In this document: positions 39,501-45,500 of the stretch, in pieces
Numbering within the stretch: position 1 is the first letter of the stretch
Layout: each line of letters opens with the position of its first letter
Source: an uncultured Nitrospiraceae bacterium
GTDB lineage: Bacteria > Nitrospirota > Thermodesulfovibrionia > Thermodesulfovibrionales > SM23-35
DNA length: 64,000 nt
Assembly: GCA_963727775.1 (NCBI GenBank)
Contig: CAVSHB010000001.1
Location: 704,001-768,000, forward strand
Direction of reading: 5' to 3'
Program-made: the position numbers

Positions 39501-42500
39501 TACGAGCCTCCTTTTTTGACAGTGTCAAGTCTTTTCTGTAAATTCTCTTCAGGGCTTTATTCTCAAGGGTTTTCATTGATACGATTATGCCGCAACCCTT
39601 TGCATCCTTGATGCCCGGATCCTCGTAAGGATTGCCTTTGCCTCCTTGGTCATGCTTACACCGTTCCATCTAAGTTCGTGGAGCTGCCAGTAAACCATGG
39701 TGAGCGCACGCTCCTCCTTCTGAAACCGGCCTGCTACCTTTACCCTTCGCTTCACCTCCTTGAAGCTCCTCTCCACTATATTGGTCGTCCGAATTCTAAG
39801 CCAGTGCTGGTAAGGATATTTGTAATAGGTCAGACAGTCTTCTATATTTTCAGTCAGGCATTCCACTGCCGAAGGATATTTCATGCGCCACTTCTTCTTG
39901 AACATTTCCACGGCCTCCTTTGCGTGCTCATAGGTCGAGGCGTAAAACACCTTCCTTACTGACTCTTTTACTGATGCCTTGTCCTGTTCCAGTACTTTAT
40001 CCAGCACGTTTTCAGTCCTGTGCTTCGTGCAGCGCTGTTTGTCTGATTCAGGGAAGACTTCATCCACCGCCTTGATAAGGCCGGGACAGCCATCGATAAC
40101 CGTGAGCATTGGTTCACTTATGCCCCGTTTCGTGAGATCCTCCAGAAAACCTTTCCACGCATTGTACGATTCACTGTTGCCAAGGGACACGCCCACGAGC
40201 TCCCGGCTGCCGTCCTCCAGAAACGCCCAGGCCACCAGCACCGCCTCTTTCTCCTTGGTCCCGGCCCTTACTCCCATCCGTACGCCGTCCAGAACAAGAT
40301 ACACCACCTGCAGCATCGATAAGTCCCGCTTCTTCCATGCATTGAACTCATCGACGATCCTGCCGCTGATCCTTATGACATTCTGATGGCTCAGGCCTTT
40401 CTTGCCTATGAGTTTACCCACAGCTTTCTTTACCTTCCTGCTGGACAGGCCGTTCATATACAAAAGAGGGATGATTTCCTGTATTTCATCCATCTGGGTC
40501 ATCCGTGGCGGCAATATCCGGGAATGAAATGGGCCACCGGCATTCCTTACCTGCGGCATCTTTAGCCCTATATCACCGCTACCGATCTTCACGGTTCTGG
40601 GCTTCGATCCACTCCGGCTTCCTTTAGCGCAGGCATTCCTCTCATAATAGTCTCTCTGAAGATATGCCGTCACTTCTTCTTCCATCGCCGACTCTAACAT
40701 CATCCTCGCTCCGATCCTCGTCAACTCCGCTAACGGGGGCATCGCCATAAACTCCTGCACTCCATCCTCAATGACTTTTTTCGCCTTCTTTGATAAAATT
40801 CTTCTCATGGGTATAATTCTCCTTTCTCTCTTTGAGAGATTGCTTTTTCCATTGAGAATTATACCCTGATTCATATTTGCAGAATTGATCTTACGCTATC
40901 CCTTTTTTGATGCTCATATTACACTTTCTCAGGTGTTCACTTTTAATTCGTAACTGACAACTGGTGAATTTTACTTGACAAAAATATAAAAAAGTTTTTA
41001 TGGTAATTAACATAGATCTTTGACATTGCTTTATTAGACGTTTCCGAAAAGGTAAACTCTGGGTAACCAGGGGGCACAAAGCCAGTGGATCCTTTCTTGG
41101 TCCTGAGTGGGAGGGAGAAGGATAGCCAGGCTGCCGAAGAAACAGTGCTTGCCCGGAATTTTACCTTTTTGAAAAAAGCCTGTTTCCCTTTGAGGAAACA
41201 GGTTTTTTTTTGCTTTTTTGTTTTCAAAAAGATTATGTGATAACCGGAGGTGGAACATGAAAAACAGTGATCTATTTGCAGAGGTTACAGATACAGGTAA
41301 TGAGGTAGGATTGCTTCCCTGTGATACCATAGACGTTACCTTTGCGTCGGAGATTGTACTTGCGGATGAGCTTGAAGACCAGATGGATCTTCTGCAGGAC
41401 CTCGGTATTGACGAAGAGGAAATTGAAGAACACGATGTCCTTGAGGAGCCGCTCATAGAAGATAAGAGGGAAGGAAGACAGGAAAAAACAGGAGACCTTG
41501 TCCAGACATATTTTTGCTCGATTAAAGATACTTCAGTTCTTACAAAAGGTGAAGAAACAGCGCTTGCAAAGAGACTGGAAAAAGGTAGACGGGTCATTAA
41601 AGGAATAATTACAAACATGCCTTTATACAAAAAAGTGGAATCTGCTTTAGACGTGCAGGAAGAAGAGAAAGATGAAAAAGCCGATAAGGCACTGGATCTG
41701 AGTTTGAAGGCACTTGAAGACCTCATGGATAAAATAGAGTCAACGGCAAAAAGCGCTGAGGGATACGGAGAAACAAACGGCGCCGGCAGATCAGCTGATG
41801 AAAAGAAAAATGGTAATGGTGTGGTACGGCATATAAGCATAAAAAAAGAGATTGAAGAGAAACGCAGACGAGTCGAAACAGAAATTGGCATGAAGATAGA
41901 GGATTTCAAGTATCTGTGGAGCAGGATTCGGAGAGAGACAGCTGTTATCGCGGACGCCCGGAATGAACTGATAACCCGGAATCTCAGGCTGGTAATTCAT
42001 ATGGCTAAACACTATCTCGGGAAAGGACTCCCTTTGCTCGACCTTATTCAGGAAGGTAATATAGGCCTTATGAAGGCCGTCGACAGATTCAAACATGAAA
42101 AGGGCTGCAAGTTCAGCACATACGCAAAGTGGTGGATCAAACAGGCGATAGCAAGGGCCGTCATAAACCAGGCTAAAACCATCAGAGTTCCCATTCATGT
42201 TATGGATTATTACCGGACCCTTACCCAAACATCCAGGGAATTAACCCAGCGGCTTGGAAGGGAGCCTGAGTATGAGGAAATTGCTCAGGAGTTAGGGATA
42301 ACCTCAAAAAAGGTTGAAGAACATTTTAAAGTCATGCAAAAGACCATATCACTTCAAAACGGGATAGGAGATGAAGATTCAAAGCTCGAAGATTTTATTG
42401 AGGACCGGAGCACACCTACACCCGAAGCCTGTTTTGAAGAAAAAGAAATAAGTGAAAAGATCTCCAAAATATTAAAAACTCTTACAAGGAGAGAAGAGAA

Positions 42501-45500
42501 AATAATAAGGATGAGATTCGGTATCGGAGTAAAGAAGGACTACACACTTGAAGAAATAGGGAAGCAGTTTTTTATCACACGCGAGGGGGTCAGGCAGTTA
42601 GAGGTAAAAGCACTGAGGAGACTCAGGCATCCGAGCAGGCAAATGGTGTTCAAGGCTTTGACTTAGGATCGATAACCTTTCTCAATCCTAAGTTGATCTT
42701 ATCTTTTGAAAGTTAATTGTTTTCAATACCTCTTCAATTTCTTTTCTTACAGAAATCCATATCGGATGGATCCTGCACGTTTTGCTCAGGTCGCAACTTC
42801 TTTATGTAGCGCCACTATAAAACTTATTGATTTATTGTGGAAGTTTTTAAAAAGTCATGAAGTAATATTCGGGTAATTTTCTTGTCCTTGAGGAAATATG
42901 GGATTATTCATTCATCAGCAGATTTACGCTAAAATAGAGGGACACAAAATTCGGCTGAGAGGAGATACTGTGAAAATATACGCTGTTATTGTTCTGTTCC
43001 TTTACTTGTTTAAGGAAGGTTTTGAATATTCCATGCAATATCTCAATCTCAGATACATGAAGAGCTTCGGTTTATCCGTACCTCCGGAATTTGAAGGGCA
43101 TATAGACGAAAGCCTGCTGAAAAAGACGCTGGCTTATGAAGTGGAAAAGACCGGGTTCAGTCTTATTTCATCAATGTTCGGCAATGTGATCACGATCTTA
43201 TTCTTCTTCGGAGGAATTCTGGATATGTATAATTCGTGGGATGTATCCTTAAACTTGTCATTTATATTATCAGGTATAATATTTTCCATACTTTTGAGCT
43301 ATGCGAGCACTCTGCTTTCAGTACCGTTAGACCTTTACAATACATTTAAAATCGAAAACAAATACGGGTTTAATACAATGACGCCGAAATTGTGGACAGC
43401 CGATTTCTTTAAATCCCTTTTCCTTTCAACCGTTCTTACAGTCATTTTGGTTTCGATAGGTTTGTGGTTGGTCCAATCAACCCTGAATTACTGGTGGATA
43501 TGGGTCTGGGGATTTTTCCTTGTCTTCAGTCTGTTCATGATGTATATTTCGCCCTATGTCATTGAACCGCTATTCAATAAATTCACGCCGATTGAAGAAA
43601 AAGGGCTGGAAGATAAAATCAAAGACCTTATGCAGAAAGCAGACATAAAGATAAGCCGGGTTTTCAGGATGGATGCGTCCAAAAGGAGCCGGCATACCAA
43701 CGCATATTTTTCAGGAATAGGCAGGGTGAAAAGGATAATTCTTTATGATACCCTACTTGAAAGAATGGATGAAGCTGAGATACTTTCGGTACTGGCGCAC
43801 GAAGCGGGCCACTGGAAGAAAAAGCATGTTTTGAAAATGATCATCATCATGGAGATTGTTTCTTTGGCCGGGATTTATATTTCTTTCAGGGTCCTTCATA
43901 CAGATTTTCTCGCGGATCTCTTCAACATCAAGCAGGGGACCTTCTTTGCCAAGATAGTTATCCTTGGTTTTATCGGAGGTATTGTTTCTTTGCCGTTTAT
44001 TCCTTTGGGCAGCTATATTTCAAGACGGTTCGAAAACGAGGCAGACAGGTTTGCATGTCAGCTTACCGAAAATGCGGAGGCAATGGCGAGTGCGCTGATA
44101 AAACTCTCAAAAGATAACCTCTCAAATCTCCATCCCCATCCCTTGTATGCAGCGTTTTATTATTCCCATCCGCCTGTTCTGCAGAGGATAAGGAATATAA
44201 GAAAACAATTAAATCTTCACGGAATTTAAAGCCGCTCGAAACTGCGGCTCTATTATTAATAAAATCTGTTTCTGAAAACAGCGCCGTATATTTTTGATTT
44301 TCCAAGACTGATTACGGCCAGGGTATAATTGACGGTTTTCCAAAGGCCTGATCGCATATTTATAAACCTTATTCTGTCTCCTGTAATTTTCTTTTCAATC
44401 ACGCAAACCTTTCCGATAATATTATGTTCTGATACGGGCTCGTCCATGCTCAGGAGGGCGTCGCCTTTTGTTTGAAAGATATGGATATTACTATTAAATC
44501 GTTTTCCGACAATCCTGTGTATTAAAGGCAAGCCGTCATGGGTTTTGAAGAATATCAGGTCTCCTGTCCGCAAAGAACAGGAAGGGACTTTTTGTATGAT
44601 CAGTATTTCTCCTCCCCGCAGGAAAGGGGACATGCTTCTGCCTGTTGCCTTAACGCGGAGACTAAGCCCGCTGTTCAGTATATCTTCAAAAAGCTTAAAT
44701 TCCCGAGGCGCTGATATTTCCGGTTCCAAGATGAAATCCATTTTTCTATCCTGTAATAAATTTTTCGAATAAATCCGCTATTCCGGTATCAGGCTTAAAA
44801 TACAGTTCATATGCAGGAATTCCGGAAGTCAGGTTTTCACACACAACGAGAATATTAGTCATTATTTCCCTGTCATACCATGGTATGGATACAACAGGCA
44901 ATAATTTTTCCAGTGCTTTCTGAGTGCTGATTTCGGATATCCTGTTATAATCACCGTGTGATATGAAAAAAATGCCCGCAAGCGGGACGTTTTTATTGAT
45001 CGCTATTTTTCCTTCTCCCGGCCACGGCGTCCCGAATGCTTTAAAAGCAGTGTCTGTTTTTCTGACGGCAATACGGTCGTCACTGAGAATCTCCAAATAT
45101 TGTAAGGCAGCGAATTGTTTTGACAGAGTGCTTTTGCCTGCCCCCGACTTCCCGGGAAATATATATCCTTTTCCATATACGTTAGCGCCGGCGGCATGGA
45201 CCAGAGCGCCATCTCTGTGAGCTAAAAAATACATAAGTATAATCTGATCAAGAGGATAACAAAAAGGGCTCGAAACCTCAGTATTGTGATTTGTCTTTTT
45301 GATAAGTCTTTCGCCGCAATAAACAGTGATGTCGGTAAAGTTATGATTGGCTCTCGCTAAAAAAAGTGGGTTATTTTCAGCCCCTGTTTGTCTGAACTCG
45401 ATATAATAACCATTGTCATTACGGTACATTGACCATGACTCGCTGCTGTCGAATTCTTTTGAGAGACTGCCGGTCTGAGGGAGATTTCCTAATTCAAGGT

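What a model noticed while it worked through the whole genome (the two positions that open the first line are those of the whole stretch)
40990..42666. c-di-GMP-I riboswitch with terminator directly gates an RpoD-like sigma factor gene
A c-di-GMP-I (GEMM-I) aptamer followed by an intrinsic terminator lies in the 5' leader of g00730, one of seven extra RpoD-like sigma-70 paralogues of this genome, and an aptamer-sigma unit stands in four other genomes of the family. I read it as an OFF riboswitch by which high c-di-GMP terminates transcription of an alternative sigma factor, so that the second messenger resets a whole sigma regulon without any protein receptor. Direct riboswitch control of a sigma-70 gene by c-di-GMP has, as far as I could find, not been described.
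Evidence so far: rna.tsv: RF01051 at C1:745041-745138(+), 58 bits (cut 35). Sequence: TTGACA promoter-like box, aptamer, then GCCTGTTTCCCTTTGAGGAAACAGG+T9 terminator, GGAGG, ATG of g00730 at 745257 (469 aa; Sigma70_r2/r3/r4; 51% to RpoD in Swiss-Prot). The aptamer's 3' end GAAACAG can pair with the terminator's 5' arm CTGTTTC (antiterminator if ligand-free). Of 50 riboswitch loci fetched from family genomes with RF01051 (about 98 matches in 27 of 41 genomes; calls 65, 188), 5 (G000, G201, G080, G202, G188; 4 genera) have a sigma-70 gene starting 100-300 nt downstream on the same strand; for G201 and G080 the leader was read and shows the same aptamer and terminator sequence, and these sigmas are 52-56% ident [...]
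(Added by a program. Inside this text positions count along the whole contig: contig position 704,001 is position 1 of the stretch shown here. "Call 12" and the like, gene names such as g00115 and contig names such as C1 are that model's own, and its searches are not shown. The text may have been shortened before it was handed on; [...] marks where a part breaks off. The agent that wrote the report below was given it as the finding of a first reader that could run no searches.)

Follow-up and report, generated by a model that had tools for sequence, protein, structure and literature searches.

The report
boxA-led c-di-GMP riboswitch gating sigma factor
A real cyclic-di-GMP-sensing RNA switch sits in front of a specialised copy of the housekeeping sigma factor, probably turns it on rather than off, and is preceded by the 'boxA' signal that normally loads helper proteins onto RNA polymerase at ribosomal RNA genes, a pairing I could not find described.

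Summary
Confirmed: a c-di-GMP-I aptamer (58 bits), an intrinsic terminator and an RpoD-like gene, in a Thermodesulfovibrionales-like genome. With all 138 family riboswitch matches read, 7 (4 genera) lead a sigma gene. These sigmas form one fast-evolving clade with shared changes in promoter-contacting residues. Three corrections. (1) The 'TTGACA box' beside the aptamer is part of a boxA site, 11/12 identical to this order's rRNA boxA; the likely promoter lies further upstream. A boxA-like motif precedes 66 of 88 homologous terminator-type switches, against 0 of 99 other family c-di-GMP aptamers and 0 of 30 cobalamin riboswitches. (2) A conserved, covarying anti-aptamer strand makes ON more likely than OFF (about 70%): without ligand it unfolds the aptamer and the terminator forms; with ligand an 11-bp antiterminator forms. 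(3) c-di-GMP-riboswitch control of a sigma-70 family gene is published (C. difficile sigD), though inside a long operon. What is new is the dedicated RpoD-derived target and, above all, the apparent loading of the rRNA-type Nus complex on a riboswitch leader. There are no transcript or binding data: polarity and the boxA role are inferred.

The parts
38121..40959 (-). ISNCY-family insertion element with an IS256 (39518-40900) nested in its end. A 15-bp target duplication (38106-38120, 40960-40974) shows it landed just upstream of the -35 box and left the core promoter intact. A bystander, not part of the unit.
40975..41004 (+). Sigma-70-type promoter candidate: TTGACA, 18-nt spacer, TATGGT (10 of 12). 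Predicted start near 41011.
   Evidence: a similar TTGACA-17/18-TA..T pair lies 10-35 nt before the boxA in 7 of 9 sigma-linked leaders that have a boxA; start site inferred
41015..41026 (+). boxA-like site GATCTTTGACAT, a putative NusB/NusE loading site
   Evidence: 11 of 12 identical to GATCTTTGACAA, found in 8 of 29 16S-23S spacer boxA sites of the order; 14.0 bits on a matrix built from rRNA sites only
41040..41143 (+). c-di-GMP-I aptamer. P1 core 41045-46/41135-36; P1 extension 41040-44/41139-43; P2 with GUAA loop; long P3; G at the position-20 equivalent (41051), A at 47 (41078), C at 92 (41134).
   Evidence: mapping to Vc2 numbering by the Rfam alignment and partly from recall
41139..41150 (+). 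Switching strand: pairs first with the 5' GUUUC (P1 extension), later with 41176-41186 (11-bp antiterminator, one bulge)
41146..41171 (+). Anti-aptamer strand, complementary to 41045-41069 (23 bp in the ligand-free minimum-energy fold)
   Evidence: (z -6.8)
41172..41211 (+). Intrinsic terminator hairpin (arms 41172-41187 and 41194-41209) with a T9 tract
41246..41250 (+). Shine-Dalgarno GGAGG
41257..42666 (+). RpoD-derived alternative sigma-70, 469 aa: regions 1.2, 2, 3, 4 intact, region 1.1 eroded; TREG in place of TRER in region 4.2 and KWWIKQ in place of TWWIRQ in region 2.3

Best explanation
A housekeeping-type promoter starts a leader of about 245 nt. The first element made is a boxA site, which probably loads NusB/NusE and the rRNA-type elongation complex (inferred). 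The c-di-GMP-I aptamer then folds, closed for a moment by the P1 extension. With little c-di-GMP, the next 26 nt invade the 5' half of the aptamer; this long helix leaves the switching strand unable to reach the terminator's 5' arm, so the terminator forms and transcription stops. With c-di-GMP bound, the aptamer resists invasion, the switching strand pairs with the terminator's 5' arm (11 bp) without touching the ligand pocket, and the freed 5' GUUUC can catch the terminator's 3' arm. RNA polymerase reads through and makes an RpoD-derived alternative sigma with altered -10/-35 contacts. High c-di-GMP thus switches the sigma ON. The boxA-loaded complex most likely sets the timing: it holds the 5' end near the exit channel so that long-range pairings form in time, suppresses pausing, and may shield the untranslated leader from Rho. 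Shown here: the sequence elements, their conservation, covariation and the sigma clade. Computed: the folds and barriers. Inferred: ligand binding, polarity (about 0.7), Nus loading (about 0.75) and an effect of Nus on the switch (about 0.5).
For: Aptamer, terminator, gene. Anti-aptamer: linker-to-5'-half duplex at z <= -2 in 59 of 88 terminator-type homologues. Each linker pairs better with its own aptamer than with others': -17.87 against -16.15 +/- 0.27 kcal/mol, 0 of 5000 permutations, 83 unselected leaders. Both-sided changes at three positions: A-U 35/G-C 7; U-A 23/C-G 10; U-A 21/G-C 6/C-G 5/A-U 2. Barriers at this locus: free aptamer to anti-aptamer 3.8 kcal/mol (dG -16.7); anti-aptamer to antiterminator 20.0; anti-aptamer to terminator 2.9; with the aptamer held, P1 extension to antiterminator 3.4 (dG -9.8) and antiterminator to terminator 6.1-8.5. 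With the aptamer held, the antiterminator forms at P >= 0.8 in 75 of 84 homologues and the P1 extension survives in 2 of 84. boxA: 28 of 37 family subclass members against 0 of 99 others, shuffle maximum 7; out of sample 12 of 25 (order) and 57 of 112 (metagenome pattern hits, chance matches included), shuffle maxima 5 and 10; rRNA-trained matrix >= 8 bits in 43 of 88, against 2 of 88 further upstream and 1 of 88 on the reverse strand; 0 of 30 cobalamin riboswitches. The genome encodes NusB, Rho, two SuhB-family proteins and 20 GGDEF matches. The rrn complex speeds aptamer folding and suppresses pausing (review PMC8632103, section 13 read). Sigma clade.
Against: There is no expression, binding or in vitro data. 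At equilibrium the ligand-free RNA also reaches an antiterminated fold once the terminator 5' arm is out (P 0.87 here), so ON rests on kinetic trapping; the path search is an upper bound and ignores pseudoknots. The ligand must hold off a 16.7 kcal/mol nearest-neighbour advantage of the anti-aptamer, and this GYRA-loop subtype usually lacks the tetraloop receptor (PMC1950547, passage). Only 41 of 84 homologues form >= 8 anti-aptamer pairs, and 3 of 10 sigma-linked leaders (all genus g21) lack the strand, so polarity may not be uniform. 22 of 88 terminator-type switches lack the boxA motif. The leaders are related by descent, so the counts overstate independence; the family-level boxA test was made after I saw the motif by eye. 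The rrn complex is described as acting on pausing and Rho; it also repositions NusA, so its net effect on an intrinsic terminator is unknown.
Confidence: 0.55

Rival explanations
1. OFF switch: c-di-GMP locks P1 with its extension so the terminator forms; without ligand the antiterminator forms, the anti-aptamer serving only to open the aptamer first.
For: The P1 extension GUUUC/GAAAC is nearly invariant and forms at P >= 0.5 in 82 of 84 homologues when the aptamer is first made. The ligand-free equilibrium favours an antiterminated fold in many homologues. Members without an anti-aptamer are most simply read as OFF. The model Cd1 switch works this way (PMC9262584, passages).
Against: A conserved, covarying anti-aptamer blocks the antiterminator (barrier 20 kcal/mol), which under OFF logic would give termination in both states. 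The antiterminator stops short of the P1 core and outcompetes the bulged P1 extension by 9.8 kcal/mol with the aptamer intact.
Confidence: 0.27
2. The switch works as described, but the boxA-like motif is not a Nus site: it is a DNA element (second promoter, repressor site) or an inherited relic.
For: The motif contains TTGACA at this locus. The leaders share ancestry. 22 of 88 lack it. It departs from the E. coli consensus GYTCTTTAANA at two positions (PMC5725501, passages).
Against: The conserved core is G.TCTTT with a variable ACA. Spacing to the aptamer varies from 22 to 32 nt, too loose for a -35 box. It is strand-specific, it matches the order's own rRNA boxA variants, and it does not pair with the leader. 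It is kept in 13 genera of the family while the flanks vary.
Confidence: 0.22
3. The ligand is 3',3'-cGAMP, or both dinucleotides.
For: One GGDEF domain of the genome (C1:1524645) has Ser at the selectivity position with a GGDEF signature, the mark of Hypr cGAMP synthases (PMC6456294, passages). 31 of the family's 101 other GEMM-I aptamers have A at position 20 by my rough parse.
Against: This aptamer has G at the position-20 equivalent; G20 RNAs discriminate against cGAMP (PMC6140456, passages).
Confidence: 0.07
4. The protein is not a promoter-directing sigma but a weakened or decaying paralogue, for example one that titrates core RNA polymerase.
For: Long branches and 64% mean identity over regions 2-4, against 96% for the 23S-linked paralogue. 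Region 1.1 is eroded. The unit is patchy: 8 of 390 class genomes carry the TREG signature.
Against: All full-length copies are open frames. The same substitutions are fixed across the clade (G for R in 9 of 9 with region 4.2; K or Q for R in region 2.3 in 11 of 12), and the core-binding region 2.1-2.2 is kept. That pattern fits specialisation better than decay.
Confidence: 0.2

Closest known systems
c-di-GMP-I (GEMM-I) riboswitch, Rfam RF01051, e.g. V. cholerae Vc2
   Same: Score above cut-off, two-hairpin core, AAA linker, GNRA loop, G20/C92-type pocket, 5' leader position.
   Different: Four-strand expression platform: P1 extension, separate anti-aptamer, antiterminator, terminator. In the papers read, the ON type has a terminator overlapping the aptamer (PMC1950547; pilM in PMC9262584). 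A boxA site precedes it.
Cd1 (Cdi-1-3) riboswitch of the C. difficile flgB operon, which holds sigD (PMC6366702, passages)
   Same: A class I c-di-GMP riboswitch with an intrinsic terminator controls a sigma-70 family gene.
   Different: Cd1 is OFF and heads a 23-kb flagellar operon with a flagellar sigma. Here the sigma is the first gene, RpoD-derived, and the switch is probably ON.
rrn nut-like site (boxB-boxA-boxC) and the NusA/B/E/G-SuhB-S4 complex (review PMC8632103, section 13)
   Same: Same boxA sequence as this lineage's rRNA operons, on the sense strand near the 5' end, ahead of an RNA that needs long-range pairing.
   Different: It leads an mRNA riboswitch that ends in an intrinsic terminator. 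No clear boxB hairpin at this locus, though hairpins precede the box in several homologues (seen by eye).
[quoted passage not shown]
   Same: boxA in an mRNA leader, outside rRNA.
   Different: There it lies near the start codon and promotes Rho termination by blocking translation. Here it is about 240 nt from the start codon. The word 'riboswitch' does not occur in that paper's main text.
Group 1 primary sigma factor RpoD/SigA
   Same: Regions 1.2, 2, 3, 4; 54% identical to the genome's 23S-linked RpoD-like protein.
   Different: Below the NCBIfam RpoD cut-offs, no region 1.1 hit, not beside dnaG, fixed changes at DNA-contacting positions.

Membership tests
c-di-GMP-I riboswitch (RF01051) | Covariance-model score above the gathering cut-off | tested here: met
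   58 against 35 bits, full model
c-di-GMP-I riboswitch (RF01051) | 2-bp plus 6-bp hairpin with GNRA loop, AAA linker, second hairpin | tested here: met
   alignment and constrained fold; features as listed in PMC1950547
c-di-GMP-I riboswitch (RF01051) | G20 and C92 in the pocket (A20 marks the cGAMP type) | tested here: met
   G41051 and C41134 by the Rfam alignment; roles from PMC6140456; numbering partly recalled
c-di-GMP-I riboswitch (RF01051) | Binds c-di-GMP and changes expression | not testable with these tools
   no binding or transcript data
c-di-GMP-I-GGC variant (RF03167) | Score above 59 bits and G in place of the central A of the linker | tested here: not met
   57.8 bits; the sequence has CAAAG where the model has CGAAg
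boxA (NusB/NusE site) | Matches the lineage's rRNA boxA | tested here: met
   11 of 12; 14.0 bits on a matrix from 29 of 30 spacers; the genome's four rRNA sites
boxA (NusB/NusE site) | Exact E. coli consensus GYTCTTTAANA | tested here: not met
   A at Y and G at position 8; the order's own rRNA sites deviate the same way
boxA (NusB/NusE site) | Lies in the transcript, on the sense strand | tested here: inconclusive
   strand bias 43 against 1 of 88 and a promoter candidate 10 nt upstream; start site not mapped
boxA (NusB/NusE site) | Host encodes the Nus complex and Rho | tested here: inconclusive
   NusB, Rho and two Inositol_P proteins found; NusA, NusE and NusG not searched
boxA (NusB/NusE site) | Binds NusB/NusE and alters elongation | not testable with these tools
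   needs binding or transcription assays
sigma-70 family | Regions 2, 3, 4 (and 1.2) | tested here: met
   four Pfam domains above cut-off
Primary sigma RpoD (group 1) | NCBIfam RpoD equivalog cut-offs | tested here: not met
   TIGR02393 301 against 354; PRK05658 364 against 555
Primary sigma RpoD (group 1) | Region 1.1 and conserved promoter-contacting residues | tested here: not met
   no Sigma70_r1_1 hit; TREG and KWWIKQ; R586 is listed among -35 contacts in PMC4943231 (passage); mapping to E. coli numbers recalled
MzaA anti-phage-associated sigma (NF041931) | Score above 800 bits | tested here: not met
   304.8 bits

The most novel reading that the evidence does not exclude
A whole subclass of c-di-GMP-I riboswitches in the class Thermodesulfovibrionia is built to be transcribed by the rRNA-type Nus elongation complex: a boxA 22-32 nt ahead of P1 turns RNA polymerase into a fast, 5'-end-holding RNA chaperone, and the ON/OFF decision depends on it. 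The switch would then read both c-di-GMP and free NusB/S10 (ribosome-building capacity), and in four genera it gates an RpoD-derived sigma with its own promoter specificity.
Probability: 0.4. Interest if true: 0.86.

Novelty: new variant of a known kind. Interest (0 to 1): 0.7.

Why it matters
Most transcriptional riboswitches are thought to depend on polymerase speed and pausing, and the Nus/boxA complex is known mainly from rRNA, phage lambda and a few mRNA leaders. A natural boxA-plus-riboswitch unit, found in dozens of copies with built-in controls (siblings without boxA or without the anti-aptamer), would make directly testable whether the rRNA elongation complex chaperones or tunes a riboswitch. 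The sigma link adds a short route from a second messenger to promoter choice through a repurposed RpoD copy, in a lineage that holds up to 15 RpoD-like genes per genome.

Tried and rejected
The search for related loci in genome contigs gave 6 distant sigmas and nothing useful. No RNA holder was listed for the locus, so no reads were laid. An orientation fallback misread several loci and was removed. The careful tree did not finish; searches are quick trees with SH-aLRT only, and the G401 sigma is not placed with confidence. The swap test used 48 leaders chosen for strong pairing and is biased; the unselected test is the one relied on. Six leaders with mis-anchored terminator calls (L194, L214, L252, L289, L290, G029:C168) are counted but dropped. 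One weak sigma hit 533 nt after G004:C10 was not counted. Equilibrium folding alone cannot decide polarity. Rejected: TCTTTGACA as a -35 box; the IS as source of the promoter or of the leader; membership of RF03167 or MzaA. The ESM Atlas only returned sigma-70 clusters. Literature: searches for boxA+riboswitch+NusB (9 papers), boxA+c-di-GMP+antitermination+riboswitch, riboswitch+Thermodesulfovibrio+c-di-GMP and riboswitch+upstream of+RpoD+c-di-GMP-I showed no boxA-riboswitch unit and no RpoD-like target in the listings or in the passages read. Not all listed papers were opened, and most subscription papers are outside the library. In the supplements of PMC1950547, rpoD and fliA had 0 hits and 'sigma' occurred only in a COG1595 legend row not tied to a motif; one file was cut and one was not searched. 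The gene lists of the 2008 and 2015 GEMM papers were not seen and may name sigma genes.

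
Full report
OBSERVATION. Rfam finds c-di-GMP-I at 41041-41138 with 58 bits against a cut-off of 35. 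A terminator hairpin at 41171-41210 with T9 follows, then GGAGG and a 469-aa ORF with sigma-70 regions 1.2, 2, 3 and 4. The genome has 8 RpoD-like genes, 2 RF01051 matches and 20 GGDEF matches. Source names of the closest proteins point to Nitrospirota, order Thermodesulfovibrionales. An ISNCY-family element with a nested IS256 ends at 40959; its 15-bp target duplication shows that it landed just upstream of the -35 hexamer at 40975 and left the promoter candidate intact.

RECURRENCE OF THE SIGMA LINK. The family search gave 138 RF01051 matches in 39 of 57 genomes, 3 of them below the cut-off. All were fetched. Seven have an RpoD-like ORF directly downstream: G000, G044, G045, G046, G049, G050, G055, in 4 genera; 8 matches have under 300 nt of downstream sequence. 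In a quick tree of 87 proteins the 12 riboswitch-led sigmas form one clade (SH-aLRT 90; 96 without G401). On regions 2-4 alone, 9 group at 93 and G401 is unresolved. Only part of the family's 236 RpoD-like matches were in these trees, and the branches are long. The clade shares fixed changes: TREG for TRER in region 4.2 (9 of 9 with that region) and K or Q for R in WWIRQ (11 of 12), with core-binding regions kept and region 1.1 eroded. The converse holds too: the TREG signature occurs in 8 of 390 class genomes, 7 of them the riboswitch carriers; in the eighth the contig ends inside the gene. So the unit arose once and was kept, though gene neighbours vary.

THE SUBCLASS AND boxA. All 7 belong to a subclass of 37 family aptamers that start GTTTCCGAAARGGTAAAC or close to it. 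The subclass mostly leads secreted or surface proteins: fn3/InlB-like repeats, GH18, GH44, subtilase, SLT, collagen, BNR, and one NusG paralogue (35 ORFs scanned). A motif TCTTT[GA] lies within 45 nt upstream of 28 of 37, against 0 of 99 other family aptamers (shuffle mean 1.4, maximum 7), with an unsearched G two bases before it in 27 of 28. I saw the motif by eye first, so the out-of-sample counts matter more: 12 of 25 order-level and 57 of 112 metagenome pattern hits, chance matches included, with shuffle maxima 5 and 10. After filtering 177 hits to 130 real aptamers and 109 distinct ones, G.TCTTT precedes 66 of 88 with the terminator platform and 3 of 17 without. The 16S-23S spacers of the order carry G[TAG]TCTTTGA[CA]AA in 29 of 30 loci, GATCTTTGACAA in 8; this is the position and form of boxA (E. 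coli consensus GYTCTTTAANA, PMC5725501, passages). A matrix from those rRNA sites alone scores this leader 14.0 bits and reaches 8 bits in 43 of 88 terminator-type leaders, 2 of 88 upstream control windows, 1 of 88 reverse strands, 1 of 17 terminator-less and 0 of 99 other aptamers. Cobalamin riboswitches: 0 of 30 (30 of the 91 matches). Spacing of 22-32 nt and a separate promoter candidate upstream in 7 of 9 sigma leaders argue against a -35 box; over all boxA leaders my strict promoter pattern was found in only 20 of 70. NusB, Rho and SuhB-family genes are present. Kinship inflates all of these counts.

POLARITY. But the linker 41146-41171 is complementary to the aptamer's 5' half. Such a strand scores z <= -2 in 59 of 88 homologues, pairs better with its own aptamer than with others (0 of 5000 permutations, 83 unselected leaders) and shows both-sided changes. 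In transcription order: the ligand-free aptamer converts to the anti-aptamer helix (barrier 3.8, dG -16.7 kcal/mol); from there the antiterminator is 20.0 kcal/mol away and the terminator 2.9. With the aptamer held folded, the P1 extension gives way to the antiterminator (barrier 3.4, dG -9.8), which leaves the P1 core intact, and the terminator is then 6.1-8.5 away. This is ON logic. Against it: equilibrium alone lets the free RNA antiterminate (P 0.87); only 41 of 84 homologues form 8 or more anti-aptamer pairs; 3 of 10 sigma leaders lack the strand; and the ligand must resist a large helix. I put ON at about 0.7 for this locus. G at the position-20 equivalent favours c-di-GMP (PMC6140456, passages), although the genome has one Hypr-like GGDEF domain.

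MECHANISM. See Best explanation. The rRNA-type complex assembles on boxA, fixes the 5' end of the RNA at the exit channel, doubles elongation speed, suppresses pausing and Rho, and sped the folding of an aptamer in vitro (review PMC8632103, section 13 read). GEMM switches lose regulation at high speed unless pausing helps (PMC9262584, passages). A leader whose decision needs the first 30 nt to pair with strands made 100-160 nt later is the kind of RNA such a complex could help. That step is inference.

KNOWN AND NEW. c-di-GMP riboswitch control of a sigma-70 family gene is published for sigD within the flgB operon (PMC6366702, passages), and unchecked notes of this scan describe riboswitch-led sigmas in other phyla, so the wiring alone is a modest variant. 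I found no report of a boxA ahead of a riboswitch or of an RpoD-derived target (searches, seen as listings; passages of PMC13753749, PMC12360218, PMC12452182, PMC9481103, PMC1950547; supplements of PMC1950547 in part). Notes of this scan on boxA leaders name no c-di-GMP riboswitch among the 8 shown of 41. Verdict: real, a new variant of a known kind; interest 0.70, carried by the boxA pairing and the four-strand ON design more than by the sigma target.

Noticed in passing
G000:C3:30047-31474 and loci L139-L166, L354: A highly conserved RpoD-like gene with region 1.1 lies directly after the 23S rRNA gene, in place of 5S, behind a hairpin with a short T run: 26 relatives plus G000, 96% mean identity over regions 2-4. 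The dnaG-linked sigma (C1:855039) lacks a recognisable region 1.1 by alignment. The primary sigma may be co-transcribed with an rRNA operon.
   Followed up: partly
L167-L170, L190-L192, L010, L015 and others: Subclass members without the terminator platform mostly have a CRP/FNR-type palindrome (motif recalled) 57-70 nt upstream and no boxA: 12 of 17, against 9 of 88 in the terminator type. Several have an anti-Shine-Dalgarno platform instead.
   Followed up: partly
L003, L004, L006, L007, L102, L103, L127: Tandem units: subclass aptamer, terminator, then a second GAAA-loop GEMM aptamer before fn3/InlB-repeat surface-protein genes.
   Followed up: no
L029 (G049:C32): A boxA-led c-di-GMP riboswitch directly precedes a NusG paralogue, possibly LoaP/UpxY-like.
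   Followed up: no
G000:C1:1524645-1525118: GGDEF domain with Ser at the substrate-selecting position, a candidate Hypr cGAMP synthase; A20-type aptamers are common in the family.
   Followed up: partly
G000:C2:578013 (L002): The genome's second riboswitch has the same boxA and terminator, a three-way compensatory change in the switching strand, no anti-aptamer, and leads a GH44/CBM protein of about 970 aa.
   Followed up: partly
window 42898-44229: M48 (Ste24-like) peptidase gene follows the sigma here and in G050; it may be co-transcribed.
   Followed up: no
window 44256-55905 (-): Cluster of a 2882-aa secreted repeat protein, PqqD-like protein, radical SAM enzyme, HprK-related kinase and S26 peptidase.
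   Followed up: no
family genomes: Large expansion of RpoD-like paralogues, up to 15 in G005 and 11 in G006.
   Followed up: partly
window 38121-40959: The ISNCY element has 4 other copies of the tested end and the IS256 has 5 other copies at 99.9-100% identity; one IS256 lies about 100 bp after another sigma paralogue at C1:916755.
   Followed up: no
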